Positions 1 to 64,000 of a DNA stretch of 64,000 nucleotides are shown piece after piece. The translations under genes and the position numbers were made by a program. The stretch spans positions 207,665 through 271,664 of the forward strand of contig CAWHSF010000003.1 of NCBI GenBank assembly GCA_963832025.1, read 5' to 3'. Within the stretch, counting starts at the first letter, position 1. Each line of letters opens with the position of its first letter. The notes below the pieces were generated by a model, which saw only the letters and a list, made by a program, of their open reading frames with translations, had not been told where the DNA came from and did no database searches. Origin of the DNA: Candidatus Nomurabacteria bacterium (GTDB taxonomy: Bacteria; Patescibacteriota; Minisyncoccia; Phycocordibacterales; UBA9973).

Positions 1-623
1 GCAGCACAAGAATTTATACCAATTAAAGAAGTCCGCGATGGAATAATCGTGTTAAAAAACGACGAGCTGCGGGCGATCGTTTTGGCCAATTCAATCAATC
101 TTTCCTTAAAATCAAACGATGAACAACAGGCAACTATTTTGCAATTTCAAAATTTTCTCAACACCTTGGATTTTCCAATACAAATATCGGTTCAGTCAAG
201 AAGACTGGATATTAGACCGTATCTTTTGCTTTTAGAAGATAGACTTAAGGTGCAAAGTGAGCCATTACTTAAACTGCAAACAAAAGAATACATAGAGTTC
301 ATTAAAAATTTTACTGACTACTGTGGCGATAATGACTAAAAGTTTTTTTGTGGTAGTGCCTTATACCCATACAACTTTAAAATCAGATTCTGGAATTTTT
401 GGAAGTTTTTTCTCTAAAAAGAGTAAAGAACAAACACAAGCAATGGCAGCAAGTTGATTTTGAAGAAAAAAGATCACAATTGGAGGAGAGAGTTGCTGTC
501 ATCCAGCAGGGTCTCGGGCGTTGTGGAATAAATTCTGCTCAGCTGGGAACCGAAGAAGTCGTGGAAGTTTTTTATAAAGTTTTCAATCCGGGAGAAGTTG
601 AAGGAAAAATAAAAGTTGAATAA
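1..623 (+). pseudogene. VirB4/TrbE-like ATPase, N-terminal region split over three reading frames (1-339, 302-457, 399-623)
   Basis: Open from base 1 (AAQEFIPIKEVRDGIIVLKND...). It continues as ...MTKSFFVVVPYTHT... in the +1 frame, then ...EERVAVIQQGLGRCGINSAQLGTEEVVEVFYKVFNP in the next +1 frame. Contiguous with the ATPase ORF at 616. Confidence 0.5.
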
Positions 624-3529: not shown

Positions 3530-3609
3530 TCCCGTTAGAAGTAACTTCTAATAATAACAATGTAATGATAAAAAACTATAAACAAAATAAAATAACTTCT
3601 AACGGGATG
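3530..3609 (+). repeat. intercistronic hairpin cassette, family G copy 3 (3' arm ends on ATG 3607)
   Basis: Left arm TCCCGTTAGAAGT (3530-3542). Proximal complement ACTTCTAA (3544-3551). Distal perfect complement ACTTCTAACGGGA (3595-3607), followed by TG. Confidence 0.7.
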
Positions 3610-10939: not shown

Positions 10940-10953
10940 AAACTTAAAATTTA

Positions 10954-11023
10954 TCCCGTACTAAATTTTAATTAAAACAAATGAACACTATTATTAAAAA
11001 TTTAAAATTTTAGTACCGGGATG
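10954..11023 (+). repeat. intercistronic hairpin cassette, family G copy 1 (3' arm ends on ATG 11021)
   Basis: Left arm TCCCGTACTAAATTTTA (10954-10970). Right arm TAAAATTTTAGTACCGGGA (11003-11021), followed by TG. Starts 15 nt after the dnaN stop. Confidence 0.7.
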
Positions 11024-11278
11024 ATTGAAATAAAAGATTTACTTAGTCGTTTTAGTGAAATTCTTCTAGGGGAAGAAGGGAAAAAAGAAGCTGTTAGAGA
11101 CGTAATTTCGTCTGTTATTCAGGTAAAAATAAAATCTGAAGATATAAAAATAAAAAATAATATTATTTATTTAAACATCAAACCTATTTACAAAAACGAA
11201 ATTTTTATTAAACAAGAAAAAATTTTTCTCGCACTAAAAGAAGCTCTCGGTAAAAAAGCACCAGAAAGTCTTAGGTAA
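11021..11278 (+). CDS. small protein, possibly DUF721/DciA-like
   Basis: 85-aa ORF after dnaN. The position and the C-terminal pattern (NNIIYLNIKPIYKNEIFIKQEKIFLALKEALG) resemble DUF721. Weak call. Confidence 0.35.
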   Translation: MIEIKDLLSRFSEILLGEEGKKEAVRDVISSVIQVKIKSEDIKIKNNIIYLNIKPIYKNEIFIKQEKIFLALKEALGKKAPESLR

Positions 11279-19992: not shown

Positions 19993-22434
19993 ATGAAAAC
20001 GGAAAATAAAAATTCAACTAAAACAATGGTCCTATTAGATGCTCACGCGATAATACATCGCGCCTATCATGCGTTGCCGGAGTTTTTATCATCCAGCGGT
20101 GAACCTACTGGCGCTCTGTACGGGCTTTCCAGCATGTTGATGAAAATTATCACCGAACTCAAACCGGACTATATTGCTGCTTGTTATGATTTGCCGCAAA
20201 AAACTTTTCGTCACGAAGCTTATGATGCCTACAAAGCTGGCCGGGCAAAAACAGATGAAGCACTGGTGGTGCAACTAAAAAAATCCAGACAAATTTTTGA
20301 AGCTTTCAACATACCTATTTATGATGCCCCTGGTTTCGAGGCGGATGATGTTTTGGGAACAATCGTTGAAAAATATAAAAAAGACAAAAGCATCAATATC
20401 ATTATCGCTTCTGGAGACATGGATACGATGCAGTTGGTTGATGATAAGAAAGTTCAAGTTTACACTCTAAAAAAAGGAATCAATGAAACCATTTTATATG
20501 ACGAAGATGCAGTAATGGAACGTTTCCATTTCAAACCGAAACTTTTGCCGGACTACAAAGGTTTGCGTGGCGACCCATCGGATAACATTATTGGCATAAA
20601 AGGCATTGGAGAAAAAACAGCGGAAAATTTAATTGTCAATTTTGGAACCATCGAGGAAATATATAAAAAAATAAAAAAAGACAAAGAAGCTTTCGTGAAA
20701 GCAAACATAAGCCTCAGAATAATTGAATTATTGAAAGAGAACGAAGAGGAAGCTCTGTTTTCAAAAACATTAGCGACCATTCGCAAAGATGCGCCGATAA
20801 ATTTTACATTACCGGCAAAAACTTTTTGGGAAAACATTGACTCTAAAAAAGTGGAACAAGTTTTCATGGATTTTGAGTTTAAAAGTTTGATGGCTCGCTT
20901 GAAGAATTTTTTTAGCGAGAATTCGACGGGTGTTGCTCAGAGGAGTCTTCGCAACGACCAGAAAGAACTTGCCCTTCCAGGACGGGGTGCGAACGACGGC
21001 GAGCAATATCCACCGAATTCTCAAATCATTAATCCTCAAAAGTTGCAAGAAGCCAGCATTGTTCTTTGGCTCATCAATTCCGATATTTCTACTCCTGGCT
21101 TAGAAGATATGTATTTCTTTGCAAAGACTGAGTCTTTTGATGTGGCTTATGAGTACATTTTTAAACAGCTAAAAGAAAGAAAGTTAGATAAAGTATATGA
21201 AGAAATCGAAAAACCGATTATTGGTGTCGTAAAAAAGATGGAAGATTTTGGAATTCTGATAGATAAAAAATATTTTGAAAAATTATCTCTTGAATACCAC
21301 AAAGAATTGGATATTTTGACCAAAAACATTTACAAAATGGCTGGAACAGAATTTAATATTAATTCTCCAAAACAGCTAGGCGAAATTCTTTTTGGTAAGC
21401 TTGGCATGAAATCTGGTAAGAAAAAAAGTGCCAATGGTAGTTTTTCCACCAAGGTTTCCATTCTGGAAGACCTTGCCGAAGAAAATGAAATTATTAAAGA
21501 AATTTTAGCTTACAGAGAGTTACAGAAATTGCTTTCTACCTACGTTGATGTCATTCCAAAAATGGCAGGGCCAGATGGACGACTGCATTCAAAATTTATA
21601 CAAAATGCCACTACAACTGGCAGGTTTTCTTCAATTGACCCAAACTTGCAAAATTTACCAATTAAAACAGAATTAGGTAGAAGAATCCGTGGTGGTTTCG
21701 TAGCTTCCAAAAATCATAAGCTAGCAGCTTTTGATTATAGCCAAATTGAATTACGGGTGGCAGCGATACTTTCCGGAGACAAAAACATGACTGAAATATT
21801 CCGTGACCGCAAAGACATTCATGCCGGAGTCGCCTCTTTTGTTTTTGGTGTGCCGATAGAGCGTGTTGATAGTGAAATGCGTCGCCGAGCAAAAGTCATC
21901 AACTTTGGCATTATTTACGGCATGGGGGTTTCTGCCTTACGAAAAAATCTGGGAGGTACCCGTGAAGAAGCGCAAAAATTTTACGATAATTATTTTAATC
22001 AATTTTCTGGAGTGCGAGATTATTTAGAAAGCGTGAAAATGTTTGCTGCTAAAAATTCCTTTACAGAGACATTGTTTGGTCGTAGGCGTTACTTCCCAAA
22101 TATCAATTCCCGAATTCCTTTTTTGAAAAACACGGCTGAACGTACTGCGACCAATGCTCCACTGCAAGGCACAGCCGCTGATATTATCAAACTTGCTATC
22201 AGATACGCTGAAGAAGATTTAAATAAAAAAGGATTGCTTTCGAAAGTTCATCTCGTGCTTCAAATCCATGATGAACTGGTTTACGAAATAGAAGATGATG
22301 TTTTAGAAGAGGCTGATAAAATAATAAAGCAGGCGATGGAAGAGGTGCTAGAAAGATCATATTTGCATTACAAAACAGACATTCCTTTACTGGTTCGCTC
22401 TGGTTTTGGTGACAATTTTGGGGAAGTAAAATAA
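19993..22434 (+). CDS. polA: DNA polymerase I (5' nuclease + polymerase domains)
   Basis: 5'-nuclease N-terminus (LLDAHAIIHRAYHAL); polymerase motifs DYSQIELRV and QIHDELV. The ORF is open from 19828, but ATG 19993 follows tsaE. Confidence 0.9.
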   Translation: MKTENKNSTKTMVLLDAHAIIHRAYHALPEFLSSSGEPTGALYGLSSMLMKIITELKPDYIAACYDLPQKTFRHEAYDAYKAGRAKTDEALVVQLKKSRQIFEAFNIPIYDAPGFEADDVLGTIVEKYKKDKSINIIIASGDMDTMQLVDDKKVQVYTLKKGINETILYDEDAVMERFHFKPKLLPDYKGLRGDPSDNIIGIKGIGEKTAENLIVNFGTIEEIYKKIKKDKEAFVKANISLRIIELLKENEEEALFSKTLATIRKDAPINFTLPAKTFWENIDSKKVEQVFMDFEFKSLMARLKNFFSENSTGVAQRSLRNDQKELALPGRGANDGEQYPPNSQIINPQKLQEASIVLWLINSDISTPGLEDMYFFAKTESFDVAYEYIFKQLKERKLDKVYEEIEKPIIGVVKKMEDFGILIDKKYFEKLSLEYHKELDILTKNIYKMAGTEFNINSPKQLGEILFGKLGMKSGKKKSANGSFSTKVSILEDLAEENEIIKEILAYRELQKLLSTYVDVIPKMAGPDGRLHSKFIQNATTTGRFSSIDPNLQNLPIKTELGRRIRGGFVASKNHKLAAFDYSQIELRVAAILSGDKNMTEIFRDRKDIHAGVASFVFGVPIERVDSEMRRRAKVINFGIIYGMGVSALRKNLGGTREEAQKFYDNYFNQFSGVRDYLESVKMFAAKNSFTETLFGRRRYFPNINSRIPFLKNTAERTATNAPLQGTAADIIKLAIRYAEEDLNKKGLLSKVHLVLQIHDELVYEIEDDVLEEADKIIKQAMEEVLERSYLHYKTDIPLLVRSGFGDNFGEVK
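20917..21022 (+). repeat. family A palindrome-ended repeat, in-frame inside polA
   Basis: TIR GAGAATTCG...CGAATTCTC. The core matches the reverse complement of 24739-24830. Confidence 0.8.
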
Positions 22435-23599: not shown

Positions 23600-23672
23600 G
23601 CGCCCGTAGCTCAGCTGGTAGAGCAGATCCCTTTTAAGGATAAGGTCCTCGGTTCGATCCCGAGCGGGCGCA
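23600..23672 (+). tRNA. tRNA-Lys (anticodon UUU)
   Basis: Hand-folded cloverleaf: acceptor GCGCCCG/CGGGCGC; anticodon loop CTTTTAA; T-loop TTCGATC. Confidence 0.9.
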
Positions 23673-23699: not shown

Positions 23700-25949
23700 A
23701 TGCAAAAAAATATTTTTAAATTAAAGAATTTATGGGAACCAGCGGGGGATCAGCCGAAGGCTATTTCTAAGCTGGTAGAAGGTTTAGAGAAGGGAATGAA
23801 GAAACAAACATTGTTGGGCGCAACCGGAACTGGCAAAACTTTTACCATGGCCAATGTCATTGCGCAGTACAACAAACCGACGCTCGTAATAGCTCACAAC
23901 AAAACTCTGGCTGCCCAGCTCGCGCAAGAATTTCGCCAGTTTTTCCCCGATGCGGCCGTGCATTATTTTGTTTCTTATTATGACTATTATCAACCGGAAG
24001 CATATATGCCTGCTTCGGATACTTATATCGAAAAAGATGCTTCCATCAATAAAGAAATAGATATGCTTCGTCACGCCAGCACACAAGCATTACTTACCAG
24101 GCGTGACGTGATTATCGTCGCTTCGGTTTCCTGTATTTATGGGCTGGGTTCTCCCGAAGAATATGAAAAAGTAAATTTAAAACTTGAACTTGGCATGAAA
24201 CTGGACCGCATGACTTTAATGAGAAAACTGATTGAGATTCATTTTGAAAGAACCAACGCGGATTTGAGTCCAGGGCAATTTCGTTCGATTGGTTCGCGAG
24301 TGGAATTTATGCCGGTGTCGGAGACTGTCATGTATCAAATAGAATTTGGAACGTCGGACCTTAAGGGGATTCAAGGTCCGACGTTAACAAAAATAATCAA
24401 AGTTGATCCGGTATCCTCGAAAATAATCGAAGAAATAAAACCCGCCGAAGGACGGGCAGGCATTTTCATTTTTCCGGCAAAACATTTTATTACTGAAGAA
24501 GTAAAAAAGCAAAAGGCATTGATTGAAATTAAAAAAGAATTAAATAAACAATTGAAAAAATTTGAAAAAGAAGGAAAGTTGCTCGAAGCTGAGCGTATTA
24601 AGAGAAGAACAAACTATGACCTAGCGATGATTCGCGAAGTTGGTTATTGCAACGGCATCGAAAATTATTCTCGGCATCTGTCGGGTAAATTGGAAGGTGA
24701 ACCGCCAGAAACTCTGCTTTCATATTTTCCGCATAGGGCTCGAGATTATTCTCGCCGTCGTTCGCACTCCGTCCTGGAAGGGCAAGAAAGTTCTGGTCGC
24801 AACGAAGACTCCTCTGAGAACAATCTCGAACCCGATTTCCTTACGATTATAGATGAATCGCATGTTACACTTCCGCAACTGCAAGGCATGTATGCCGGAG
24901 ATGCTTCCAGAAAAGAAACCCTAGTAGAATATGGATTCAGATTGCCATCAGCTAAGGACAACAGACCCCTTAAATTTAATGAATTTGAAGAAAGAATAAA
25001 TAATGTAATTTATACTTCTGCCACACCTGGAGAATTTGAAAGATCTAATAGTAATCAAACAGTAGAACAGATAATCAGACCCACTGGTTTGGTTGATCCA
25101 GAAATAGAAGTAAAGTCGGTAAGCGAAAAAGAAGATTACAAGGGCCAAATTCAAGATTTTATTTTTGAGACAGAAAAAACAATCAAAAAAGGTTTCCGCG
25201 TTTTAGCGACCACCCTCACAAAAAAAATGGCGGAGGACCTCTCAACATATTTGAAGGATAAAAAAATCAAAGCGGAATATTTACATAGTGATATAAAAAC
25301 AATGGAACGAATAAAAATTCTCACTCAGTTTAGAAAAGGAGAATTTGATGTTTTGGTTGGAGTAAACTTACTTCGCGAGGGACTTGATTTACCTGAAGTT
25401 GCTTTAATCGGTATTTTAGATGCTGATAAATCCGGATTTTTACGTTCGGAAACAGCGCTAGTGCAAACCATCGGTCGCGCAGCCAGAAATAGCGAAGGAA
25501 AAGTTATTCTATATGCGGACATCATGACTCCGGCCATGGAATATGCTATTTCCGAAACTACTCGCCGGAGAAATATTCAGCTTGCTTATAATAAAAAACA
25601 TGGTATCACTCCGAAGACAATTATGAAAAAGATAAATGACATTACCGAAGAGTTGGAAAGTGAACATGGGAAAACAGTGAATGCGGAATTAAACCTTGAT
25701 TTGGAAGTTTTCAAACGAGCTTACGCCAAAGAGTTAAAATTAGACAAAAGTAAACTAACAAAAAAGAATGGACTAACTGAAGTTAAATTACACATGTCCG
25801 ACGAAGAGAGAAGCAACTTAGTCTATGAAAAAATAATAAAAATCAAGGAAAAAGAAATGAGTAAAGCAGTTAAAGAATTGGATTTCGAAACCGCAGCGAT
25901 TCTGCGTGATGAAATTGGAGTTTTGAAATTACGTTTGGAGAAAAAATAA
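23700..25949 (+). CDS. uvrB: excinuclease ABC subunit B
   Basis: GATGTGKTF; DESHVTLPQ; helicase C motifs; C-terminal UVR domain (FETAAILRDEI). Carries three inserted repeat segments. Confidence 0.95.
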   Translation: MQKNIFKLKNLWEPAGDQPKAISKLVEGLEKGMKKQTLLGATGTGKTFTMANVIAQYNKPTLVIAHNKTLAAQLAQEFRQFFPDAAVHYFVSYYDYYQPEAYMPASDTYIEKDASINKEIDMLRHASTQALLTRRDVIIVASVSCIYGLGSPEEYEKVNLKLELGMKLDRMTLMRKLIEIHFERTNADLSPGQFRSIGSRVEFMPVSETVMYQIEFGTSDLKGIQGPTLTKIIKVDPVSSKIIEEIKPAEGRAGIFIFPAKHFITEEVKKQKALIEIKKELNKQLKKFEKEGKLLEAERIKRRTNYDLAMIREVGYCNGIENYSRHLSGKLEGEPPETLLSYFPHRARDYSRRRSHSVLEGQESSGRNEDSSENNLEPDFLTIIDESHVTLPQLQGMYAGDASRKETLVEYGFRLPSAKDNRPLKFNEFEERINNVIYTSATPGEFERSNSNQTVEQIIRPTGLVDPEIEVKSVSEKEDYKGQIQDFIFETEKTIKKGFRVLATTLTKKMAEDLSTYLKDKKIKAEYLHSDIKTMERIKILTQFRKGEFDVLVGVNLLREGLDLPEVALIGILDADKSGFLRSETALVQTIGRAARNSEGKVILYADIMTPAMEYAISETTRRRNIQLAYNKKHGITPKTIMKKINDITEELESEHGKTVNAELNLDLEVFKRAYAKELKLDKSKLTKKNGLTEVKLHMSDEERSNLVYEKIIKIKEKEMSKAVKELDFETAAILRDEIGVLKLRLEKK
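24350..24385. repeat. 36-bp perfect hairpin in-frame inside uvrB
   Basis: AACGTCGGACCTT-aaggggattc-AAGGTCCGACGTT (13-bp perfect arms); encodes GTSDLKGIQGPT. Confidence 0.7.
24441..24460. repeat. short GC-rich hairpin in-frame inside uvrB
   Basis: CCCGccgaaggaCGGGcagg encodes PAEGRAG; shares its terminal CGGGCAGG with the yebC insert. Confidence 0.35.
24739..24830 (-). repeat. family A palindrome-ended repeat, in-frame inside uvrB (inverted relative to polA copy)
   Basis: TIR CTCGAGATT...AATCTCGAA. Encodes ...RARDYSRRRSHSVLEGQESSGRNEDSSENNLEP between conserved YFP and DFLTIIDESH. Confidence 0.8.
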
Positions 25950-36557: not shown

Positions 36558-36660
36558 GCTCAAAATATATTTTATAAAGCAATCTATCTCCGCAAGCTTG
36601 CGGAGCGAACCTGCTCGGCTACCCGCCTGCGCAAGACTTTCTAAAACATATTTTCTGAGC
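36558..36660 (+). repeat. family F intergenic palindromic element, copy 2
   Basis: Outer TIR GCTCAAAATATATTTTATAAAG / CTTTCTAAAACATATTTTCTGAGC. Inner palindrome CTCCGCAAGCTTGCGGAG (36588-36605). The core is identical to copy 1. Confidence 0.75.
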
Positions 36661-45034: not shown

Positions 45035-48000
45035 TTATTCTTGTACTGTTGTTGTGGTAGTTTTCTTTCCGAGAGGTTGATGATCTACAACAGTGGTAGT
45101 TCTTTTGATAAAAGGAGCTGTGGGCGGTGGAAGATATGCTGGATTTATTTTTCTTTGTCCGTAAATATATTTTGCTAACAATATCAATATAAGAATAAGT
45201 ATGATTATGATAAGCCAACCAAATATATTTGTCGGGAAGAAGCCAGCTCCGAAAGCGAATGCTCCAAGAGGGGAGGTCGTTCCGGTTGTTGCACTCCATA
45301 CTTGAGCGGAAACATTCGCATTGACTGATTGAGAATTACCGGAAGGGTCAACATAGTTTAAGGTTGCAGGGAAGTTGAGCAATGTGCCTGCGGTTGCGTC
45401 GCTGTTTACCTGTGTTTTTACTGTTACCACACCGGAAGCTCCTCCTCTAAGTGTTCCCAAGTTGAATACCAAAGTATTTCCGAGAACATTAGGATTGATT
45501 GGGTTCGATGAAAGATAAGTTACTTCTTGTGGCAACACTAACTGCAAACTTAGATTGGTAGCAGATCCTGTTCCGACATTTTGATAATTTATAGTGTAAT
45601 TAATTTCATCTCCTGGGTGTGGTCTGGTGTTGTCAATTGTAGGAACAATCGGTTGGTCTCTATTTACCGAAGAAGTAATAAGAAGAAGTGAACTTGCAGC
45701 TGTCCTGTTTACATATCTGATTACTGTCGTCGGACTCTGTGCCCCAGTTGTGGTAAAGCTTAATATATAACCATTACTACTTTGATAGGAATCTTGCGCA
45801 ATTGCTCGGAAGTAATAAGTTGTTCCAGGGCTTAATCCACTCAATGTGTCTGTGTGTATAACCGATGGCAATGTTCCGACAGCTGTGGTTGTAGTCGTAT
45901 TTCCCAAATTTATAGTTGGGCCCCACTCAAACCAAGCATTTATTGGGCTGGAATCAGAACTGCTAATTAAGGAGTTCAATTGTGCACTGGTGCTTAATAC
46001 TTGTGTTGCTTGCGTGGTGACGACACTTAGATTGCTTGCTATTGGTTGTGGATATATTGGTGTTGGAACGGGATATACCGGAACTATTGGTTGATAGTTT
46101 TGATTTACATAAACAGTGGTTGAACCAGTCGCTTGCTGTCCGGTGCTACTAGTACAAACAATATTGTAAGTAGTTGTATAAGTTAGAGCTCCAGTAGTTA
46201 TACTGCCGGAAGTACTTTGTGTTCCGGAAAGTCCATTGTAACCACCAGTAATACTACAATAACTTGCGTTAGTTGAGTTCCAAGAAATAATACTGGAACC
46301 ATTATAGTTGACACTGGAAGGATTTGCGTAAATGTTGACGGTAGGTTGCAAAATTTGATTTTGATTTACATAAACAGTGGTTGAACCAGTCGCTTGCTGT
46401 CCGGTGCTACTAGTACAAACAATATTGTAAGTAGTTGTATAAGTTAGAGCTCCAGTAGTTATACTGCCGGAAGTACTTTGTGTTCCGGAAAGTCCATTGT
46501 AACCACCAGTAATACTACAATAACTTGCGTTAGTTGAGTTCCAAGAAATAATACTGGAACCATTGTAGTTGACACTGGAAGGATTTGCGTAAATGTTGAC
46601 GGTAGGAATCTGGTTTTGAATTTGATTTACCGACACCGTCGCTGAAGCACTTACTTGTGTTCCATTGGTTCCATAACAAGTAATTGAATAGGTTGTAGTT
46701 CCACTTGGTACTACAACTCCGGAACCACTAGTTGCTGTACTGGAAGTCCAGTAAGCCTGACAAGATGTTGCGTTATTTGAACTCCAAGTAAGTGTAGAGT
46801 TTGCTCCGGATTGGATGGAAGTTGGGTTGGCGTAAAGAGAAACGGTTGGGTTTTGATATTGAATCTGATTTACCGACACCGTCGCTGAAGCACTTACTTG
46901 TGTTCCATTGGTTCCATAACAAGTAATTGAATAGGTTGTAGTTCCACTTGGTACTACAACTCCGGAACCACTAGTTGCTGTACTGGAAGTCCAGTAAGCC
47001 TGACAAGATGTTGCGTTATTTGAACTCCAAGTAAGTGTAGAGTTTGCTCCGGATTGGATGGAAGTTGGGTTGGCGTAAAGAGAAACGGTTGGGTTTTGAT
47101 ATTGAATCTGATTTACCGACACCGTCGCTGAAGCACTTACTTGTGTTCCATTGGTTCCATAACAAGTAATTGAATAGGTTGTAGTTCCACTTGGTACTAC
47201 AACTCCGGAACCACTAGTTGCTGTACTGGAAGTCCAGTAAGCCTGACAAGATGTTGCGTTATTTGAACTCCAAGTAAGTGTAGAGTTTGCTCCGGATTGG
47301 ATGGAAGTTGGGTTGGCGTAAAGAGAAACGGTTGGGTTTTGATATTGAATCTGATTTACCGACACCGTCGCTGAAGCACTTACTTGTGTTCCATTGGTTC
47401 CATAACAAGTAATTGAATAGGTTGTAGTTCCACTTGGTACTACAACTCCGGAACCACTAGTTGCTGTACTGGAAGTCCAGTAAGCCTGACAAGATGTTGC
47501 GTTATTTGAACTCCAAGTAAGTGTAGAGTTTGCTCCGGATTGGATGGAAGTTGGGTTGGCGTAAAGAGAAACGGTTGGGTTTTGAATCTGTTGCGCTGCT
47601 ACTGTTACCGTCGCATATGCGGAAGCTTGTGCTCCGGTACTGCTGGTACAAGTAAGATTGTAAGAAGTTGTATTAGCTAAAGCTCCAGTATTAAAACTAC
47701 CGGAAGTATTTTGATTTCCTCCCCAACCATTTGTACCACCACTTGCGATGCAAGATGTTGCGTTGGTGGAATTCCAAGTTAAGATACTTGTTCCATTGTA
47801 AGCTACGGAAGTTGGATTAGCGGAAAGAGAAACTGTCGGCTGAACCTGACCACTCACTGACACCGTCGCATAGGCGGAAGCTTGTGCTCCGGTACTGCTG
47901 GTACAAGTAAGATTGTAAGAAGTTGTATTAGCTAAAGCTCCAGTATTAAAACTACCGGAAGTATTTTGATTTCCTCCCCAACCATTTGTACCACCACTTG

Positions 48001-48967
48001 CGATGCAAGAAGTTGCGTTAGTAGAATTCCAAATTAACGTACTTGTTCCATTGTAAGCTACGGAAGTTGGATTAGCGGTTAAACTGACAGTTGGGGTTTT
48101 TATCTGTTGAGTTACCGACACCGTCGCTGAAGCACTTACTTGTGTTCCATTGGTTCCATAACAAGTAATTGAATAGGTTGTAGTTCCACTTGGTACTACA
48201 ACTCCGGAACCACTAGTTGCTGTACTGGAAGTCCAGTAAGCCTGACAAGATGTTGCGTTATTTGAACTCCAAGTAAGTGTAGAGTTTGCTCCGGATTGGA
48301 TGGAAGTTGGGTTGGCGTAAAGAGAAACGGTTGGGTTTTGAATCTGTTGCGCTGCTACTGTTACCGTCGCATATGCGGAAGCTTGTGCTCCGGTACTGCT
48401 GGTACAAGTAAGATTGTAAGAAGTTGTATTAGCTAAAGCTCCAGTATTAAAACTACCGGAAGTATTTTGATTTCCTCCCCAACCATTTGTACCACCACTT
48501 GCGATGCAAGATGTTGCGTTGGTGGAATTCCAAGTTAAGATACTTGTTCCATTGTAAGCTACGGAAGTTGGATTAGCTGTAAGGTTAACGGTTGGTGTAA
48601 CTACAGTAGGTTGGCAAGAAGCGGTAGTAAAAGAAACCATACTTCCGGACCATGATCCTTGAGGGGCATTGTTGAATTCTGTTTCATAATAATATGTAGT
48701 GTTTTGAGTGAGACCATTTATTACGGCACTGAAATCCGAATACGCAGTATAAGTTTGAGGAGTCGTGGAATATCCGAGAGATGGAGTAGGTCCCCATTCA
48801 AACCAAGCTGAAGTCGGAGTTCCGTTTGGACTTACGTAGCCATTTAAGGTTGCGCTGTTGCAAGTCTGCACTTGATATTGTGCTGCTGCTTTGTTTACAT
48901 TAATAAAAAGCCCGAAAACGGTAACGAAAACGATAAACATGGATATTGATAACTTTTTCATATTCAT
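45035..48967 (-). CDS. giant cell-surface repeat protein (signal peptide, FN3-like ends, 10 Ig-like tandem repeats, DUF11-like domain, C-terminal TM anchor)
   Basis: 1310 aa. N-terminal MNMKKLSISMFIVFVTVFGLF. Two ...WFEWGPT... modules. Three repeat types (A x3, B x5, C x2). C-terminal WLIIIILILILILLAKY anchor. Confidence 0.8.
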   Translation of the reverse strand: MNMKKLSISMFIVFVTVFGLFINVNKAAAQYQVQTCNSATLNGYVSPNGTPTSAWFEWGPTPSLGYSTTPQTYTAYSDFSAVINGLTQNTTYYYETEFNNAPQGSWSGSMVSFTTASCQPTVVTPTVNLTANPTSVAYNGTSILTWNSTNATSCIASGGTNGWGGNQNTSGSFNTGALANTTSYNLTCTSSTGAQASAYATVTVAAQQIQNPTVSLYANPTSIQSGANSTLTWSSNNATSCQAYWTSSTATSGSGVVVPSGTTTYSITCYGTNGTQVSASATVSVTQQIKTPTVSLTANPTSVAYNGTSTLIWNSTNATSCIASGGTNGWGGNQNTSGSFNTGALANTTSYNLTCTSSTGAQASAYATVSVSGQVQPTVSLSANPTSVAYNGTSILTWNSTNATSCIASGGTNGWGGNQNTSGSFNTGALANTTSYNLTCTSSTGAQASAYATVTVAAQQIQNPTVSLYANPTSIQSGANSTLTWSSNNATSCQAYWTSSTATSGSGVVVPSGTTTYSITCYGTNGTQVSASATVSVNQIQYQNPTVSLYANPTSIQSGANSTLTWSSNNATSCQAYWTSSTATSGSGVVVPSGTTTYSITCYGTNGTQVSASATVSVNQIQYQNPTVSLYANPTSIQSGANSTLTWSSNNATSCQAYWTSSTATSGSGVVVPSGTTTYSITCYGTNGTQVSASATVSVNQIQYQNPTVSLYANPTSIQSGANSTLTWSSNNATSCQAYWTSSTATSGSGVVVPSGTTTYSITCYGTNGTQVSASATVSVNQIQNQIPTVNIYANPSSVNYNGSSIISWNSTNASYCSITGGYNGLSGTQSTSGSITTGALTYTTTYNIVCTSSTGQQATGSTTVYVNQNQILQPTVNIYANPSSVNYNGSSIISWNSTNASYCSITGGYNGLSGTQSTSGSITTGALTYTTTYNIVCTSSTGQQATGSTTVYVNQNYQPIVPVYPVPTPIYPQPIASNLSVVTTQATQVLSTSAQLNSLISSSDSSPINAWFEWGPTINLGNTTTTTAVGTLPSVIHTDTLSGLSPGTTYYFRAIAQDSYQSSNGYILSFTTTGAQSPTTVIRYVNRTAASSLLLITSSVNRDQPIVPTIDNTRPHPGDEINYTINYQNVGTGSATNLSLQLVLPQEVTYLSSNPINPNVLGNTLVFNLGTLRGGASGVVTVKTQVNSDATAGTLLNFPATLNYVDPSGNSQSVNANVSAQVWSATTGTTSPLGAFAFGAGFFPTNIFGWLIIIILILILILLAKYIYGQRKINPAYLPPPTAPFIKRTTTVVDHQPLGKKTTTTTVQE
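46101..46622 (-). repeat. 2 x 261-bp near-identical tandem coding repeat (type C)
   Basis: tgatttacataaacagtggttgaacc... recurs at 46101 and 46362. Confidence 0.85.
46624..47585 (-). repeat. 4 x 243-bp tandem coding repeat (type B), apparently identical at nucleotide level
   Basis: gatttaccgacaccgtcgctgaagc... starts at 46624, 46867, 47110 and 47353. Units 2 and 3 read identical by eye. Confidence 0.9.
47586..48600 (-). repeat. interleaved type A / type B repeat units (A3, A2, B1, A1) with long identical stretches
   Basis: ttgaatctgttgcgctgctactgttaccgtcgcatatgcgg occurs near 47580 and again near 48320. Confidence 0.75.
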
Positions 48968-55758: not shown

Positions 55759-55905
55759 AAATTTGGACAAACGAAAAAGCCACAGAGACTCTTCCTAAAT
55801 AATTTAGATAAATCTAAGTGACTTGTGTGATTTGCTTCCGATTGGAAGAAATGTGGGCTTTGGGGGTCCGCGGCGGACCCCCAGTCCCGTGTTCCGCGCC
55901 TTCAG

Positions 55906-56040
55906 CTAGTCGGCCGGCTCGGTGTTGTCAGCGCAGAAGTTGGTGTTGAGGCCGGTGCTACCGCGGGTGTCGGTGAGGCCTTCGCATACGACATTGGCAT
56001 TCGGGTTGGCGCAGGAGGCGCCGAGACAGCGTTTGTTCAT
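55906..56040 (-). CDS. 44-aa Cys-containing peptide encoded in a high-GC islet (foreign-looking)
   Basis: MNKRCLGASCANPNANVVCEGLTDTRGSTGLNTNFCADNTEPAD. 35 of 43 codons after ATG end in G/C. AAGGAG lies 7 nt upstream of ATG. GC stem-loop GGGGGTCCG-cgg-CGGACCCCC lies downstream. Confidence 0.5.
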   Translation of the reverse strand: MNKRCLGASCANPNANVVCEGLTDTRGSTGLNTNFCADNTEPAD

Positions 56041-56395: not shown

Positions 56396-56477
56396 CGGAG
56401 GGCAGAGGAGTCGAACCTCTAAGTGGTTTCCCACGATAGTTTTCAAGACTATTGCCATACCATTAGGCGAGCCCTCC
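56396..56477 (-). tRNA. tRNA-Ser (anticodon UGA)
   Basis: Acceptor GGAGGGC/GCCCTCC; anticodon stem-loop ATAGT-CTTGAAA-ACTAT; long variable arm GTGG-GAAA-CCAC; T-arm AGAGG-TTCGACT-CCTCT. Confidence 0.85.
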
Positions 56478-60851: not shown

Positions 60852-60869
60852 TAGAGCCTTAGAGAAATG

Positions 60870-60941
60870 CCCTCGTAGTTCAATGGATAGAACAGAGCTC
60901 TTCTAAGGCTTCGATGTAGGTTCGATTCCTACCGAGGGCAC
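60870..60941 (+). tRNA. tRNA-Arg (anticodon UCU)
   Basis: Acceptor GCCCTCG/CGAGGGC; anticodon loop CTTCTAA; T-arm GTAGG-TTCGATT-CCTAC. Confidence 0.9.
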
Positions 60942-61259
60942 AAAAATAAGCGGAGCATATTTTTGTGCCCGAGAGCGAGCAAACTGCTTTGCTCGCGGGT
61001 AGGAAGCGAAAAGCTTTTCATTAATAGCGAGAAATTTATTTCGAGCTATTTGAAAAGGTATACTGTTCCCGTAGGGAAAGATATCCTACCGAGGGCACAA
61101 AAATAAGCGGAGCATATTTTTGTGCCCGAGAGCGAGCAAACTGCTTTGCTCGCGGGTAGGAAGCGAAAAGCTTTTCATTAATAGCGAGAAATTTATTTCG
61201 AGCTATTTGAAAAGGTATACTGTTCCCGTAGGGAAAGATATCCTACCGAGGGCACAAAT
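60929..61259 (+). repeat. 2 x 157-bp direct tandem repeat, each unit starting with the last 13 nt of tRNA-Arg(UCU)
   Basis: CCTACCGAGGGCACAAA occurs at 60929, 61086 and 61243. The intervening 157-bp units read identical. Confidence 0.9.
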
Positions 61260-62102: not shown

Positions 62103-62108
62103 CTATCT

Positions 62109-63050
62109 ATGCAAGGCAAACACGTAGACGAATCTTATTTAGATTTATTGGAGCACATTATCAAGAATGGTGCGGTGAAAACTGACCGCACGGGAACGGG
62201 TACGAAGAGTTTATTGGGCTATCAAATGCGCTTTAATCTAAGCGACGGTTTTCCTCTTCTGACTACAAAAAAAGTTCCAATCAAATCAATCATCCACGAA
62301 TTGTTATGGTTCATGCGTGGTGACACCAACTTAAAATATTTGGCTGATAATAATGTGCACATTTGGGACGAGTGGCCTTACAAAGCTTATTTAATCAGAA
62401 ACAAAATGAATGTTCCAAAAACAGGCTCGGAAGAATGGAATTCGGGCATCAAGGAATTTATAGAAAAAATAAAAGCAGATGAAAGTTTTGCCAAAGATTA
62501 CGGAAACCTCGGTCCGATTTACGGATATCAGTGGAGAAGTTGGCCGACGCCAAACGGTGGACACATAGACCAGCTGGCGAAAGTCATAGAAGATATTAAA
62601 AACACTCCGGATTCTCGACGATTGATAGTTTCAGCCTGGAATGTAGCGGACATTGATGAGATGGCGAAAGCCGGACTTCCTCCATGTCATTGTTTTTTTC
62701 AATTCTATGTCGTGGATGGAAAATTGTCTTGTCAGCTCTATCAGCGCTCCTGTGATACTTTTCTCGGAGTTCCGTTTAATATTGCTTCTTATGCTTTGTT
62801 CACAATGATTATCGCACAGATTTGCGGATTACAGCCCGGAGAATTTGTTTGGACCGGCGGAGATGTTCATCTCTACTCAAATCATTTAGAGCAAGCGAAT
62901 TTACAACTTTCTCGTCGCGGTGATATTCGTCCGATGCCAAAAATGAAAATAAATCCAAACAAAAATAAAATTGCAGATTTTACAATCGATGATTTTGAAT
63001 TAATTGATTATAATCCTCATGAAGGAATAAAAGCCCCTATCGCAGTTTAA
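62109..63050 (+). CDS. thyA: thymidylate synthase (ThyA)
   Basis: [18 protein letters not shown] (catalytic Cys), GDVHLY motifs. The ORF is open from 62073. Confidence 0.9.
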
Positions 63051-63055
63051 ACATC

Positions 63056-63571
63056 ATGATTTCACTAATTGCAGCCATTGGTAGAAATAATGAACTTGGG
63101 AAGGGGAATACTTTGCTTTGGAAACTACCAGCCGACATGGAACATTTTAAAAAAATAACTTCTTTACATACCGTTTTGATGGGCAGAAAAACTTTTGAGT
63201 CCCTCGGGCGTAGTCCTACGGGCGAGCCAGTTGGACGTCCATTGCCAAATAGGAGAAATATAATCATTACTCGAGATGTAAATTACAAAAAAGAAGGAGT
63301 TGAAATTGCTCATTCATTGAGTGAGGCTTTAGACATAATCGGAAACAACGATGAAGAAATTTTTGTTATCGGCGGAGCAGAAATTTACAAGCAAACCATG
63401 CCGATTGCCGACAAGCTTTACATTACCCATATTGATGCGGAAGATAGTTCTGCCGACAGTTTTTTCCCGGAAATTATTCCGATTGTTTGGAATGAAGTAT
63501 CTCACGAGGAACACGAAAGAGACGAGAAAAATCCCTTAAACTACACTTTTTCTGTTTACGAGAAAATTTAA
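63056..63571 (+). CDS. folA: dihydrofolate reductase
   Basis: MISLIAAIGRNNELG; MGRKTFES; VIGGAEIY. Contains a 9-codon insertion in the GRPLP motif. Confidence 0.85.
   Translation: MISLIAAIGRNNELGKGNTLLWKLPADMEHFKKITSLHTVLMGRKTFESLGRSPTGEPVGRPLPNRRNIIITRDVNYKKEGVEIAHSLSEALDIIGNNDEEIFVIGGAEIYKQTMPIADKLYITHIDAEDSSADSFFPEIIPIVWNEVSHEEHERDEKNPLNYTFSVYEKI
63209..63238. other. 27-bp GC-rich in-frame insertion with flanking GR/GR codon duplication inside folA
   Basis: ESLGR-SPTGEPVGR-PLPNRR; gggcgt...ggacgt flank the insert; CGTAG-tc-CTACG mini-hairpin. Confidence 0.5.
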
Positions 63572-64000
63572 ACGAGATAAGTGCTTTTGTATTGTCTAAT
63601 TTTTACACCGGCTAATTTAAATAGTTTTTTTGATGCTCGTACGATCGGAGTCTTTGCATATTTGTCACTTTCATAAATAACTTCCTTGATCCCATTCTGG
63701 ATTATGGTTTTTGCGCATTCGTTGCAAGGGAATAGATTGCAATATATTTTACATCCCTTGGTTGAATTATTGGCATTATAAACTGCGTTTTCTTCTGCGT
63801 GGCATACGTAAGCGTATTTTGTGTCTTCAAAATCCCCGACTTTCTCCCAAGGCAAAGCATCATTTTCAATTCCTCTAGGGAAACCATTGTATCCGACTCC
63901 CACTACAACATTACTATAGTCCACGACCACAGCACCTGCTTGAGTATTGGGGTCCTTGGATCTTTCGGAAATAAGATGAGCCATTCTCATAAAGCATTCA
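63568..64000 (-). CDS. dCMP deaminase (ComEB-like), 5' end beyond window
   Basis: CHAEENA...PCNECAK cytidine/deoxycytidylate deaminase zinc motif. The reading frame is still open at base 64000. Confidence 0.8.
   Translation of the reverse strand, partial: ECFMRMAHLISERSKDPNTQAGAVVVDYSNVVVGVGYNGFPRGIENDALPWEKVGDFEDTKYAYVCHAEENAVYNANNSTKGCKIYCNLFPCNECAKTIIQNGIKEVIYESDKYAKTPIVRASKKLFKLAGVKIRQYKSTYLV

What the first reader, a model, noticed from the sequence alone, without database searches (positions are those of the whole stretch)
63209..63238. Nine-codon GC-rich insertion inside the conserved GRPLP motif of DHFR
The DHFR cofactor-binding motif is normally contiguous (...T-F/W-E-S-I-G-R-P-L-P-G-R...). 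Here it reads ESLGR-SPTGEPVGR-PLPNRR. The 27-bp insert is GC-rich and contains a CGTAG-tc-CTACG mini-hairpin. It is bracketed by a duplicated Gly-Arg codon pair (gggcgt / ggacgt), which looks like a target-site duplication and regenerates an intact GRPLP on the C-terminal side.
Basis: partly seen in the sequence, partly recalled or inferred. Interest (0 to 1): 0.6.

Follow-up and report, generated by a model that had tools for sequence, protein, structure and literature searches.

The report
Nucleotide-identical 27-base loop cassette in DHFR
The nine extra codons in this dihydrofolate reductase are real and encode a surface loop, but the surprise is that the same 27 bases, identical almost to the letter, sit at the same codon in a scattered minority of otherwise strongly diverged DHFR genes of related uncultured bacteria, so the piece has been passed around (or is constrained) as DNA.

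Summary
Observation confirmed; interpretation mostly wrong. The ORF 63056-63571 is a full-length DHFR with nine extra residues between the equivalents of E. coli S49 and I50. This is the folate-tail loop, not the NADPH motif, and it is the site of the eukaryotic PEKN insertion. The Gly-Arg 'target-site duplication' fails: 8 of 12 carriers have Gly-Lys there, and the conserved block does not end at those codons. The mini-hairpin is no better than chance.

The loop belongs to a family. A sister clade of Paceibacterota/Nomurabacteria DHFRs mostly carries 8-9-residue loops at this site, and there they vary normally. The SPTGEP allele behaves differently. In 12 genes that are 56-81% identical in DNA, the 29-nt block TCCCTCGGGCGTAGYCCTACGGGCGAGCC diverges 1.4% from consensus, against 19.8% elsewhere. 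Identity stops at the insert boundaries. Carriers are scattered like random labels (12 events for 13 tips).

Best reading (about 0.45): a translated loop allele on a 27-nt cassette spread laterally, probably by very short-patch recombination. Rivals: a precise site-specific mini-element, or an old element under nucleotide-level constraint with repeated loss. Mechanism unresolved; interest moderate to high.

The parts
63056..63571 (+). Dihydrofolate reductase gene (171 aa), with stop codon
   Evidence: Pfam DHFR_1 full length, E 2.7e-57. PDB DHFRs down to E 2e-41. AF2 model pTM 0.83; Foldseek TM 0.85-0.94 to bacterial DHFR crystal structures.
63202..63228 (+). The inserted 27-nt cassette CCTCGGGCGTAGTCCTACGGGCGAGCC (consensus has C at 63214), lying inside the ancestral Ser codon TC|N
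   Evidence: Codon alignment of 12 carriers and 6 non-carriers: non-carriers read GAR TCN ATC GGN AAR; carriers read GAR TC[C CTC GGG CGT AGC CCT ACG GGC GAG CC]N ATH GGN AAR. The base after the cassette varies (A/T/C/G) as a host third position would.
63200..63228 (+). 29-nt block that is nearly invariant at the nucleotide level among carriers
   Evidence: 5 differences from consensus in 348 bases, against 1151 in 5808 in the rest of the gene. Third positions 4/108 against 698/1932. Lowest-divergence window of 463. Same-amino-acid codon identity 0.87 against 0.52.
63203..63229 (+). Codons of the extra loop L50-G-R-S-P-T-G-E-P58 (protein-alignment placement of the gap)
   Evidence: MAFFT gap placement against 107 insert-less relatives. 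AF2: residues 51-60 have mean pLDDT 60, the lowest in the protein, with no helix or strand of the tool's minimum length (only isolated bridge residues at 52 and 58).
63230..63256 (+). The original motif V59-G-R-P-L-P-N-R-R67 (equivalent to E. coli I50-G-R-P-L-P-G-R-K58)
   Evidence: Alignment with E. coli FolA and insert-less P0010. G60, P62, L63, P64, N65, R66 and R67 are invariant or nearly so among 119 relatives.
63209..63220 (+). CGTAG-TC-CTACG mini-palindrome, centre of an imperfect palindrome CTCG-GG-CGTAG-YC-CTACG-GG-CGAG (63203-63226)
   Evidence: Read from sequence. Not exceptional: 134 such 5+5 palindromes and 40 with 11-nt arms at 9/11 or better in the window; fold z-scores -0.3 to -0.7.
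62106..63050 (+). Thymidylate synthase ThyA directly upstream (ORF opens at TTG 62073; probable start ATG 62106)
   Evidence: Pfam Thymidylat_synt E 8.6e-119. Context only: relatives have ThyA, ThyX or a distant ThyA-like gene here irrespective of the insert.
63568..63990 (-). dCMP/cytidine deaminase, convergent, ORF end overlapping the DHFR stop by 4 nt
   Evidence: Pfam dCMP_cyt_deam_1 E 7.4e-21. Context only.

Best explanation
The nine codons are translated into a flexible surface loop at the C-terminal end of helix alpha-C, on the rim of the cleft that holds the folate tail. The loop is one allele (LGRSPTGEP) of a family of 8-9-residue loops that many Paceibacterota/Nomurabacteria DHFRs carry at this indel-prone point. 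This allele travels as a discrete 27-nt GC-rich DNA cassette. It entered normally loop-less DHFR genes of many diverged lineages recently, relative to the divergence of those genes. The most likely route is DNA uptake followed by very short-patch homologous exchange (gene conversion), kept by selection on the enzyme or by biased conversion, with occasional loss by slippage.

Shown: the loop family, the nucleotide identity, the sharp boundaries, the scattered distribution, one mosaic gene, one likely deletion derivative.

Inferred: translation and loop function, direction (gain rather than loss), the recombination mechanism, any selective advantage.
For: Real and translated:
- The insert is always 27 nt, in frame and without stops.
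- Homologous loops in the sister clade evolve at the protein level with conserved length and pattern (L-[GA]-x-x-x-x-G-x-x), and they cluster phylogenetically.
- The AF2 fold is intact, with the insert as the lowest-confidence loop. TM is 0.85-0.94 to DHFR structures.
- The site is a natural indel hotspot: +1 to +4 residues in 47 of 150 diverse representatives, and PEKN in eukaryotes (PMC8697555).

Spread as DNA:
- Block divergence is 1.4% against 19.8% elsewhere.
- The exact codon string has probability about 5e-8 given the peptide, and the DNA patterns used to collect carriers were degenerate at synonymous sites, so there is no ascertainment bias.
- All block variants seen in the DNA alignment are singletons.
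- GC3 is 6-7/9 in hosts whose GC3 is 0.24-0.51, i.e. not ameliorated.
- Thirteen carriers among 120 relatives need 12 events, the same as shuffled labels at 12.4. Nearest masked neighbours are insert-less, up to 93% identity. Carriers are also scattered in the sister clade, next to loop-less genes.
- Carriers sit beside three different thymidylate-synthase genes.

Recombination:
- L035 is 99-100% identical to L003 up to and through the block, then 100% identical to L010 for 48 nt.
- L010 differs from its closest relative L029 (insert-less) at 0 of 30 nt upstream but 8 of 30 nt downstream, plus a Ser-codon family switch. That fits an imported patch with a donor flank.
- Imports with a mean length of 28 bp are documented after natural transformation of H. 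pylori (PMC4917963).

Loss:
- L031 lacks the insert but keeps the rare codons TCC CTC before GGT AGA, as expected from slippage between the TCGG repeats.
Against: - Apart from L010, L035 and L003, there is no donor haplotype around the block. The 30-nt flanks are as diverged among carriers (0.77 and 0.74 identity) as between carriers and non-carriers. They are no more L003-like than non-carrier flanks.
- Eleven of 12 carriers have different sequences in the 13 nt after the block.
- The base immediately after the cassette matches the Ser third base of the nearest non-carrier in the four closest pairs. That fits a clean indel better than a patch with flanks.
- RecA-type exchange between 70-80%-identical flanks should be rare, yet about 12 events are needed.
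- A PHI-type test shows no general recombination signal once L035 and L003 are removed (p = 0.69), though its power is low.
- L035 comes from a short metagenome contig, so a chimeric assembly cannot be fully excluded.
- Competence and DNA uptake in these organisms were not examined here.
- No functional data exist for the loop.
Confidence: 0.45

Rival explanations
1. A non-autonomous, site-specific mobile mini-element. The 27-nt imperfect palindrome is inserted precisely, without target duplication and without flank conversion, into the Ser49 codon of loop-less DHFR genes. It may also be excised precisely. A trans-acting enzyme would do this, for example a hairpin-recognising single-strand (Y1, IS200/IS605- or RAYT-like) transposase or a recombinase. 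It is tolerated because it lands in frame in an indel-tolerant loop.
For: - The invariant region coincides exactly with the inserted 27 nt, and host-like variation resumes at the very next base on both sides.
- Flanks show no hitch-hiking.
- The base after the cassette tracks the Ser third base of the nearest non-carrier.
- The distribution is as scattered as random labels.
- The cassette is GC-rich and quasi-palindromic, with 4-nt inverted termini CTCG...CGAG and an internal GTAG.
- Precedents exist for palindromic elements translated in frame: Rickettsia RPEs (PMC10969869). Mobile GC-rich hairpin clusters also occur in AT-rich yeast mitochondrial DNA (PMC4478555).
Against: - There is only one copy in the 64-kb window (3 mismatches or fewer), and one per locus in the roughly 100 kb of relatives' DNA held, always in DHFR. 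None was found in viral contigs.
- 27 nt is far below any known autonomous or non-autonomous element.
- No transposase was looked for or seen next to the gene.
- The palindrome and fold are not better than chance.
- The peptide resembles native sister-clade loops (LGYSPTGE-PG, LGVSPTGE-LG), which points to an origin as a protein loop rather than as a selfish element.
- L010/L029 and L035 show flank co-transfer.
Confidence: 0.2
2. An old insertion, ancestral to both clades, whose 27 nucleotides are held constant by selection on the nucleic acid itself. It could be a protein- or RNA-binding site, or a recombinase-type site of 12+2+12 architecture embedded in the coding sequence. The scattered pattern would come from many independent precise deletions.
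For: - Invariance covers all positions, including six four-fold-degenerate sites, against AT-biased host composition.
- At least one loss by deletion is visible (L031).
- The cassette is flanked by the near-repeat GAGTC/GAGCC, which could promote precise slippage.
- Its half-sites form an 11-12-nt imperfect inverted repeat around a 2-nt centre.
Against: - Sister-clade loops at the same site vary freely at the protein level, so any constraint would have to be all-or-none and allele-specific.
- No Rfam family matches, and there is no unusual folding energy.
- No covariation is possible to assess.
- It needs about 12 exact 27-nt deletions among 120 sequences, each restoring the universal ES-IG[KR]PLP motif.
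- L029's AGT Ser codon cannot derive from TC|N by deletion.
- All variants in the DNA alignment are singletons, mostly G-to-A or C-to-T, as expected for a young GC-rich segment decaying in AT-rich genomes.
Confidence: 0.2
3. Footprint of a homing element. A group I intron, intein or free-standing homing endonuclease once targeted this conserved DHFR site. The cassette would be the co-converted donor exon tract left after repeated invasion and loss.
For: Short nucleotide-identical tracts at one site in diverged genes, sporadically distributed, are what exonic co-conversion tracts look like in the plant cox1 intron system (PMC3192709). Thymidylate-cycle genes are classic homing targets in phages (established knowledge, from memory).
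Against: - No DHFR in 240 close relatives or 150 representatives carries a large insertion or a split at this site.
- No endonuclease gene flanks the gene in any locus.
- Co-conversion tracts have one fixed and one ragged boundary, whereas here both boundaries are sharp.
Confidence: 0.05
4. Assembly or sequencing artefact, or a plain lineage-specific loop of no special history.
For: Metagenome-assembled sources; one mosaic gene (L035) sits on a 1.1-kb contig.
Against: - The cassette is joined to 11 different flank haplotypes in assemblies from NCBI, JGI, ENA and Logan, from different samples and assemblers. Such junctions must exist in reads.
- A plain vertical loop would show synonymous divergence like the rest of the gene and would form a clade.
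Confidence: 0.03

Closest known systems
Eukaryotic DHFR 'PEKN' insertion (human residues 62-65; E. coli G51PEKN 'humanised' variant, PDB 4gh8)
   Same: Same point of the fold: the gap falls between E. coli S49 and R52 in both. It is an in-frame loop extension next to the folate-tail contacts. It is reported to add flexibility and to modulate hydride transfer and turnover (PMC8697555). The humanised E. coli DHFR appears among the structural matches.
   Different: PEKN is 3-4 residues, unrelated in sequence, vertically inherited in eukaryotes and coupled to a Met20-loop PP insertion. Here the insert is 9 residues, bacterial (CPR), has no companion insertion, and has a nucleotide-identical, sporadic distribution.
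Long-loop DHFRs of Paceibacterota/Nomurabacteria (sister clade found here: L[AG][RK]DENGKQ[IV]G[RK]LLP and LGxSPTGE[LP]G[RK]PLP types)
   Same: Same site, same length class (8-9 residues), same pattern (Leu, then Gly/Ala... Gly ..., then [IVLP]-G-[RK]). Some members read SPTGE. Same group of organisms.
   Different: Those loops vary normally and cluster on the tree. The LGRSPTGEP allele is almost invariant in protein and DNA and is scattered in both clades. DNA of the sister-clade loops could not be fetched.
Mosaic alleles spread by natural transformation, including very short 'micro-imports' (mean 28 bp) in Helicobacter pylori
   Same: Short patches of foreign sequence inside otherwise native genes, with a size class matching the cassette (PMC4917963). 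One mosaic DHFR (L035) and one probable patch with a donor flank (L010) were seen here.
   Different: The H. pylori donor and recipient differ by about 4.5%. Here the flanks differ by 20-30%, the import is a 27-nt heterology, and most carriers show no donor flank at all.
Rickettsia palindromic elements (RPEs) and other MITEs inserted in frame in coding genes
   Same: Palindromic DNA that lands in frame in conserved genes and is translated as an extra peptide compatible with the fold (PMC10969869).
   Different: RPEs are about 150 bp, multi-copy (44 insertions in unrelated genes in one genome) and fall into families. The cassette is 27 nt, single-copy and confined to one codon of one gene.
Mobile GC-rich hairpin clusters of AT-rich yeast mitochondrial genomes (e.g. 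GC42)
   Same: Short GC-rich palindromic sequences in AT-rich DNA, sporadic presence/absence among strains, stems conserved below the synonymous rate (PMC4478555).
   Different: GC clusters are multi-copy, mostly intergenic, and have AG target-site duplications. None of these holds here.
Exonic co-conversion tracts left by homing introns (plant mitochondrial cox1)
   Same: A short nucleotide-identical tract at a fixed site that marks lateral events in otherwise diverged genes (PMC3192709).
   Different: No intron, intein or endonuclease is associated with this site in any sequence examined.

Membership tests
Dihydrofolate reductase (Pfam PF00186, FolA type) | Full-length match to the DHFR_1 profile above the curated cut-off | tested here: met
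   193.3 bits against a cut-off of 25; residues 1-170 on profile 1-159/159.
Dihydrofolate reductase (Pfam PF00186, FolA type) | DHFR fold | tested here: met
   AF2 pTM 0.83, mean pLDDT 87. Foldseek TM 0.85-0.94, rmsd 1.3-2.5 A to bacterial DHFR structures.
Dihydrofolate reductase (Pfam PF00186, FolA type) | Catalytic and ligand-contact residues (E. coli D27, F31, T46, R57, G96-G97, Y100, T113 equivalents) | tested here: met
   D27, F31, T46, G106, G107, Y111 and T124 are invariant, and R66 nearly invariant, among 119 relatives and present in the window protein. Residue roles are from established E. coli DHFR knowledge.
Dihydrofolate reductase (Pfam PF00186, FolA type) | Enzymatic activity | not testable with these tools
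   Needs expression and assay.
   GGG CGT / GGA CGT occurs only in the window. Eight of 12 carriers have GGN AAA. The inferred junctions TC|C...CC|N share at most one base.
MITE / Rickettsia-palindromic-element-like in-frame repeat | Multiple copies at unrelated loci in a genome | tested here: not met
   One copy in the 64-kb window at 3 mismatches or fewer. One per relative locus, always in DHFR. The rest of the genome was not available.
MITE / Rickettsia-palindromic-element-like in-frame repeat | Terminal inverted repeats and palindromic structure beyond chance | tested here: inconclusive
   CTCG...CGAG termini and 11-nt arms at 9/11 exist, but 40 such palindromes occur in the window (9-18 in shuffles), and fold z is -0.3 to -0.7.
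MITE / Rickettsia-palindromic-element-like in-frame repeat | In-frame insertion in a conserved gene, translated | tested here: met
   27 nt, no stop, in all carriers. Translation is inferred from homologous protein-level loops.
REP / RAYT or IS200-IS605-type hairpin element | Hairpin with conserved GTAG, many extragenic copies, cognate Y1 transposase gene | tested here: not met
   A GTAG tetranucleotide is present in the cassette, but the element is single-copy and intragenic. The transposase gene was not searched genome-wide.
Programmed translational bypass element (T4 gene 60, mitochondrial byps) | Insert unreadable (stop or frameshift), with matched take-off and landing codons | tested here: not met
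   The insert is an open 9-codon frame in every carrier. Related loops evolve as protein.
Eukaryote-type PEKN insertion | Insertion at the E. coli G51 position | tested here: met
   The gap coincides in the four-way alignment; PMC8697555.
Eukaryote-type PEKN insertion | P-E-K-N/X sequence, 3-4 residues, with a Met20-loop polyproline partner | tested here: not met
   The sequence is LGRSPTGEP, 9 residues, with no Met20-loop insertion.
Paceibacteria long-loop DHFR family (defined here) | 8-9 extra residues between ES and [IVLP]G[RK], starting Leu-Gly/Ala, with an internal Gly | tested here: met
   The window loop L-G-R-S-P-T-G-E-P fits; about 100 of 119 sister-clade sequences carry such loops.
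Paceibacteria long-loop DHFR family (defined here) | Vertical inheritance with ordinary sequence drift | tested here: not met
   The SPTGEP allele is invariant and scattered.
Known RNA family (Rfam 15) | Covariance-model match at the site | tested here: not met
   No match overlapping 63200-63228, even at E up to 10; none at gathering thresholds in the window except 5 tRNAs.

The most novel reading that the evidence does not exclude
The 27-nt cassette is the smallest known site-specific mobile insertion. It would be a non-coding, quasi-palindromic mini-element that homes precisely into one codon of a conserved housekeeping gene (DHFR Ser49) across diverged CPR lineages. It would leave no target duplication and no flank conversion, and it would be tolerated because it is read as a surface loop. 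That implies an unrecognised trans-acting insertion/excision activity in Paceibacteria.
Probability: 0.15. Interest if true: 0.9.

Novelty: new variant of a known kind. Interest (0 to 1): 0.6.

Why it matters
Three reasons.

1. It is direct sequence evidence that uncultured, small-genome CPR bacteria (Paceibacteria) exchange or mobilise tiny DNA segments between lineages whose genes differ by 20-45%. Very little is known about recombination in these organisms.

2. A 27-nt segment that stays letter-identical while everything around it, including the adjacent base, has diverged is hard to produce with ordinary homologous recombination. Either very short-patch import works across large divergence, or there is an unknown precise insertion mechanism, or there is a nucleic-acid-level function inside a housekeeping gene. 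Each outcome would be informative.

3. The loop sits where eukaryotic DHFR acquired PEKN, an insertion shown to tune dynamics and turnover, and next to the residues that hold folate and antifolate tails. Natural with/without pairs at up to 93% identity are ready-made material for testing how loop length at this site affects catalysis and inhibitor binding.

Tried and rejected
- **Target-site duplication.** Rejected from the codon alignment.
- **Hairpin significance.** RNA folds of 39- and 91-nt contexts on both strands gave z from -0.7 to +1.1. Palindrome counts were compared with shuffles. Not special.
- **Rfam.** Run at E up to 10 on 63000-63600 and at gathering thresholds on the whole window. 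Nothing at the site.
- **Dispersed repeat or uptake-sequence idea.** One copy in the window and one per locus. Sub-word search found only a 13-mer at 3713 coding G-S-P-T-G in an unrelated secreted protein, judged chance.
- **Local template for a templated insertion.** No forward or reverse-complement match of 10 nt or more near the gene.
- **GC-richness as a pure amino-acid effect.** This was my first idea (note 1). Rejected: GC3 is 6-7/9.
- **Correlation with neighbouring genes.** Carriers occur with ThyA, ThyX and a distant ThyA-like gene, with or without MazG. No association.
- **Phage vector.** No exact cassette in viral contigs, and the best viral DHFR is 48% identical.
- **Donor-flank signal.** Identity to L003 and difference density by distance from the block were both negative except for L010/L035.
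- **General recombination (PHI-type permutation test).** p = 0.055 with L035 and L003, p = 0.69 without. Uninformative at this saturation.
- **Short-peptide homolog search centred on the insert.** Returned only four DHFR fragments; wasted.
- **The 17 non-DHFR hits of the degenerate genome scan.** These are 15-19/23 matches in high-GC genomes, out of frame. Chance.
- **Tandem-duplication origin** (ESLGRSPTG / EPVGRPLPN, and a 13-nt internal period). Suggestive by eye but too short to test; kept only as a comment on the ancient origin of the loop family.
- **P0037 DNA.** P0037 is the 93%-identical insert-less partner of P0004. Its DNA was not retrievable.
Full report
**1. What is at the coordinates**

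Window 63056-63571 (+) is a 171-aa ORF that matches the Pfam DHFR profile end to end (E 2.7e-57). It lies between thyA (62106-63050, +) and a convergent dCMP deaminase (63568-63990, -). The protein reads ...VLMGRKTFES-LGRSPTGEP-VGRPLPNRRNIIITRD....

Every solved bacterial DHFR aligns with a clean nine-residue gap at this point. In a four-way alignment the gap falls between E. coli S49 and I50. That is exactly where human DHFR carries its extra PEKN residues.

By established knowledge of E. coli DHFR (from memory), this stretch is the end of helix alpha-C and the loop whose I50, R52, L54 and R57 hold the p-aminobenzoyl-glutamate tail of folate. The NADPH contacts are G43-T46 and the GG motif.

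**2.

- *GC-richness: confirmed.* 27-nt windows reach 0.74 GC in a 0.378-GC window, roughly the 99.9th percentile. It is not only an amino-acid effect: third positions inside the block are 6-7/9 G or C, against 0.24-0.51 in the rest of the gene.
- *CGTAG-TC-CTACG palindrome: exists but is ordinary.* The window holds 134 perfect 5+5 palindromes with a 2-nt spacer (78-102 in shuffles). It holds 40 with 11-nt arms at 9/11 or better. Predicted folding energies are indistinguishable from shuffles (z -0.3 to -0.7). Rfam finds nothing there.
- *Duplicated Gly-Arg pair as target-site duplication: fails.* Among 12 carriers, the second pair is Gly-Lys (GGN AAA) in eight. The conserved block begins seven nucleotides upstream of the first GGG CGT.

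**3. Relatives**

The exact protein lies on a 430-kb contig. Named close relatives are Candidatus Paceibacterota/Nomurabacteria, i.e. CPR bacteria.

Of the 120 best hits (70-100% identical), 107 lack the insert and read FES-IG[KRH]PLPNRRN. Thirteen carry it, nearly unchanged, as LGRSPTGEP[IVM]G[KR].

With the insert masked, carriers do not group. Their nearest neighbours are insert-less (P0004/P0037 93%, P0007/P0108 90%, P0008/P0065 89%). A parsimony count on NJ trees needs 12 changes for 13 carriers (bootstraps 11-12), the same as randomly shuffled labels at 12.4.

The gene upstream of DHFR is ThyA, ThyX or a distant ThyA-like gene, irrespective of the insert. The carriers are therefore genuinely different organisms.

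**4. The key result: nucleotide identity**

I obtained DNA for 12 carriers and 6 non-carriers. Sources were degenerate pattern scans, which do not constrain synonymous positions, and exact-protein look-ups.

In the codon alignment, non-carriers read GAR TCN ATC GGN AAR. Carriers read GAR TC[C CTC GGG CGT AGC CCT ACG GGC GAG CC]N ATH GGN AAR.

| Measure (12 carriers) | 29-nt block | Rest of gene |
|---|---|---|
| Differences from consensus, all positions | 5 of 348 (1.4%) | 1151 of 5808 (19.8%) |
| Differences from consensus, third positions | 4 of 108 | 698 of 1932 |

- The block is the least diverged of 463 windows of that size.
- Same-amino-acid codon identity is 0.87 inside and 0.52 outside.
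- Given the peptide and this window's codon usage, the codon string has a probability of about 5e-8. Convergence is excluded.
- Identity stops at the edges. The third base of Glu48 (A/G) and the base after the cassette (A/T/C/G) already vary, and 11 of 12 carriers have different sequences in the next 13 nt.
- The 30-nt flanks are no more alike among carriers (0.77, 0.74) than between carriers and non-carriers. They are not more like the most divergent carrier, L003, than non-carrier flanks are.
- All variants in the DNA alignment are singletons, mostly G-to-A or C-to-T.
- The cassette joined to so many different flanks, in assemblies from four repositories, cannot be an assembly artefact.

**5. 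The loop is not unique: a sister clade**

L003 (Candidatus Nomurabacteria) is only 55% identical to the window protein, yet it carries the block unchanged. Searching with it revealed a sister clade (MGQKTFES...; 173-177 aa) in which most members have a loop at this same site. Four states occur:

- a 9-residue L[AG][RK]DENGKQ[IV]G[RK]LLP type;
- an 8-residue LG-x-[SG]P[TD]G-E[LP]G[RK]PLP type, which includes LGYSPTGE-PG and LGVSPTGE-LG;
- a few exact LGRSPTGEPIGK alleles;
- about 16 with no loop.

The first two types vary normally and form coherent blocks on the tree. The exact SPTGEP allele is again scattered (six sequences in five places), and its nearest neighbours are mostly loop-less.

So an 8-9-residue loop at this site is an old, protein-level-evolving feature of Paceibacteria DHFRs. 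That is the best evidence that the nine codons are translated. SPTGEP looks like one member of that family.

Outside these clades the site is a known length-variable spot: 47 of 150 diverse 50%-identity representatives have +1 to +4 residues, and none has +9 or SPTGEP. A species-representative genome scan found the peptide in DHFR only in three CPR genomes. The other 17 hits were chance matches in high-GC genomes.

**6. Structure**

An AlphaFold2 model built on 119 relatives keeps the DHFR fold (pTM 0.83, mean pLDDT 87). Residues 51-60 are the least confident stretch (mean pLDDT 60), with no helix or strand of the tool's minimum length and only isolated bridge residues at 52 and 58. The model superposes on bacterial DHFR structures with TM 0.85-0.94. 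Catalytic and ligand-contact residues are conserved.

By analogy with PEKN, which is described as adding flexibility and whose removal changes kcat and kinetic isotope effects (PMC8697555), the loop probably modulates folate-tail binding or dynamics. This is inference.

**7. How did the same 27 nt get into diverged genes?**

*Evidence for recombination.* L035 is a mosaic: 99-100% identical to L003 up to and through the block, then 100% identical to L010 for 48 nt. L010 differs from its closest relative L029 (insert-less; 92% identical in the 5' part) at 0 of 30 nt upstream of the block. Downstream it differs at 8 of 30 nt, plus a Ser-codon family switch. That is what an imported patch with a donor flank would look like. 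Imports averaging 28 bp are documented after natural transformation in H. pylori (PMC4917963).

*Evidence against ordinary recombination.* The other carriers show no donor flank at all. The base after the cassette matches the Ser third base of the nearest non-carrier in the four closest pairs. A PHI-type test is negative without L035 and L003 (p = 0.69), though it has low power. Flanks of 70-80% identity are poor substrates for exchange.

*A clean 27-nt indel would fit these points better.* This means either precise site-specific insertion, or precise loss of an old element held constant at the nucleotide level.

- Against a transposable element: it is single-copy in 64 kb and in all relatives' loci, and absent from viral contigs. 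It is tiny, and its peptide resembles native loops.
- Against ancient constraint: sister-clade loops are free to vary, no RNA family or fold signal exists, about 12 exact deletions would be required, and the GC-rich third positions look un-ameliorated.

*Loss does occur.* L031 lacks the insert but keeps the rare codons TCC CTC before GGT AGA, as slippage between the TCGG repeats would leave.

**8. Verdict**

The TSD/hairpin interpretation is not supported.

The loop is a member of a lineage-specific loop family at a known indel hotspot of DHFR, which is ordinary. Its SPTGEP allele is a nucleotide-identical 27-nt cassette, sporadically distributed across strongly diverged genes, which is not ordinary.

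| Reading | Probability |
|---|---|
| Recent lateral spread by very short-patch exchange | about 0.45 |
| Precise mobile mini-element | about 0.2 |
| Nucleotide-level constraint with recurrent loss | about 0.2 |
| Homing footprint, artefact or other | the remainder |

The decisive data are sister-clade DNA, whole-genome scans for further copies, and a species tree of the carriers.

Noticed in passing
Loci L030, L036, L027, L037, L021 (ThyX); window, L032, L007, L026, L033, L035, L003, L028, L031 (ThyA); L010, L024, L034 (distant ThyA-like, 28-38% id): The gene immediately upstream of DHFR is swapped among close relatives. It is a canonical ThyA, a 451-aa ThyX (PF02511) or a distant ThyA-like protein, independent of the DHFR insert. 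ThyX next to a DHFR is unexpected, because ThyX does not produce dihydrofolate.
   Followed up: partly
L035 (P0079), whole DHFR gene 566-1081: Mosaic DHFR: the 5' part is 99-100% identical in DNA to L003 up to and through the cassette. The next 48 nt are 100% identical to L010, and the rest is about 76% identical to L010. The crossover lies at or in the cassette. It is a 1.1-kb contig, so a chimera cannot be fully excluded.
   Followed up: yes
L031 (P0011), DHFR codons 49-52: Insert-less allele reading ES-L-GR-PLL, with the cassette's rare codons TCC CTC retained before GGT AGA. This is probably a 27-nt deletion derivative formed between the TCGG repeats. About seven of 107 insert-less relatives have this Leu-type junction.
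   Followed up: partly
window 30634-30717 (+), 36571-36654 (+), 32682-32722 (inverted copy): Three copies of an intergenic element of about 84 nt. Its hairpin arms differ by compensatory changes (GGCAAAGCTTTGCC / CCGCAAGCTTGCGG / GGCGAAGCTTCGCC), followed by a conserved GC-rich tail GCGAACCTGCTCGGCTACCCGCCTG. It is a candidate structured RNA or terminator family, with no Rfam hit at gathering score.
   Followed up: no
window 26520-26589 / 29206-29275, and 10939-11024 / 28752-28837: Two further pairs of dispersed repeats (70 nt at 79% identity, 86 nt at 73%) with internal inverted repeats.
   Followed up: no
window 60927-61240: Perfect tandem duplication of a 157-nt unit that starts in the 3' end of the tRNA at 60869-60940. 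Each unit holds a 35-nt hairpin (GGGCACAAAAATAAGCGGAGCATATTTTTGTGCCC).
   Followed up: no
window 20936-21010 and 24744-24818: 75-nt inverted repeats (85% complementary) bracketing 3.7 kb that includes the tRNA at 23600-23672. This could be the ends of a mobile or duplicated segment.
   Followed up: no
window 46098-48608: Long in-register tandem repeats with 243-nt and 261-nt units (62-100% identity), presumably a repeat-domain protein.
   Followed up: no
window 55850-56035: An unusually long GC-rich stretch (three adjacent islands with 27-nt GC of 0.70 or more) in a 38%-GC window, just upstream of the tRNA at 56396-56477.
   Followed up: no
window 3713-3725: The 13-mer GTAGCCCTACGGG of the consensus cassette occurs once more, coding G-S-P-T-G in a 395-aa secreted-type ORF (3565-4752). 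My rough composition-based estimate of the chance expectation is about 0.01. The rest of the cassette is absent, so it is probably coincidence.
   Followed up: partly
L010 (P0033) and P0106, after DHFR residue ~78: A second, independent 5-6-residue insertion (QKNLTTHA / DLPAEAR) in the loop before beta-strand D in a few relatives. This shows that other loops of these DHFRs are also length-variable.
   Followed up: no
window 63568-63571: The DHFR ORF and the convergent dCMP deaminase ORF overlap by 4 nt at their ends. thyA ends 5 nt before the DHFR start. The packing is very tight, typical of reduced genomes.
   Followed up: no
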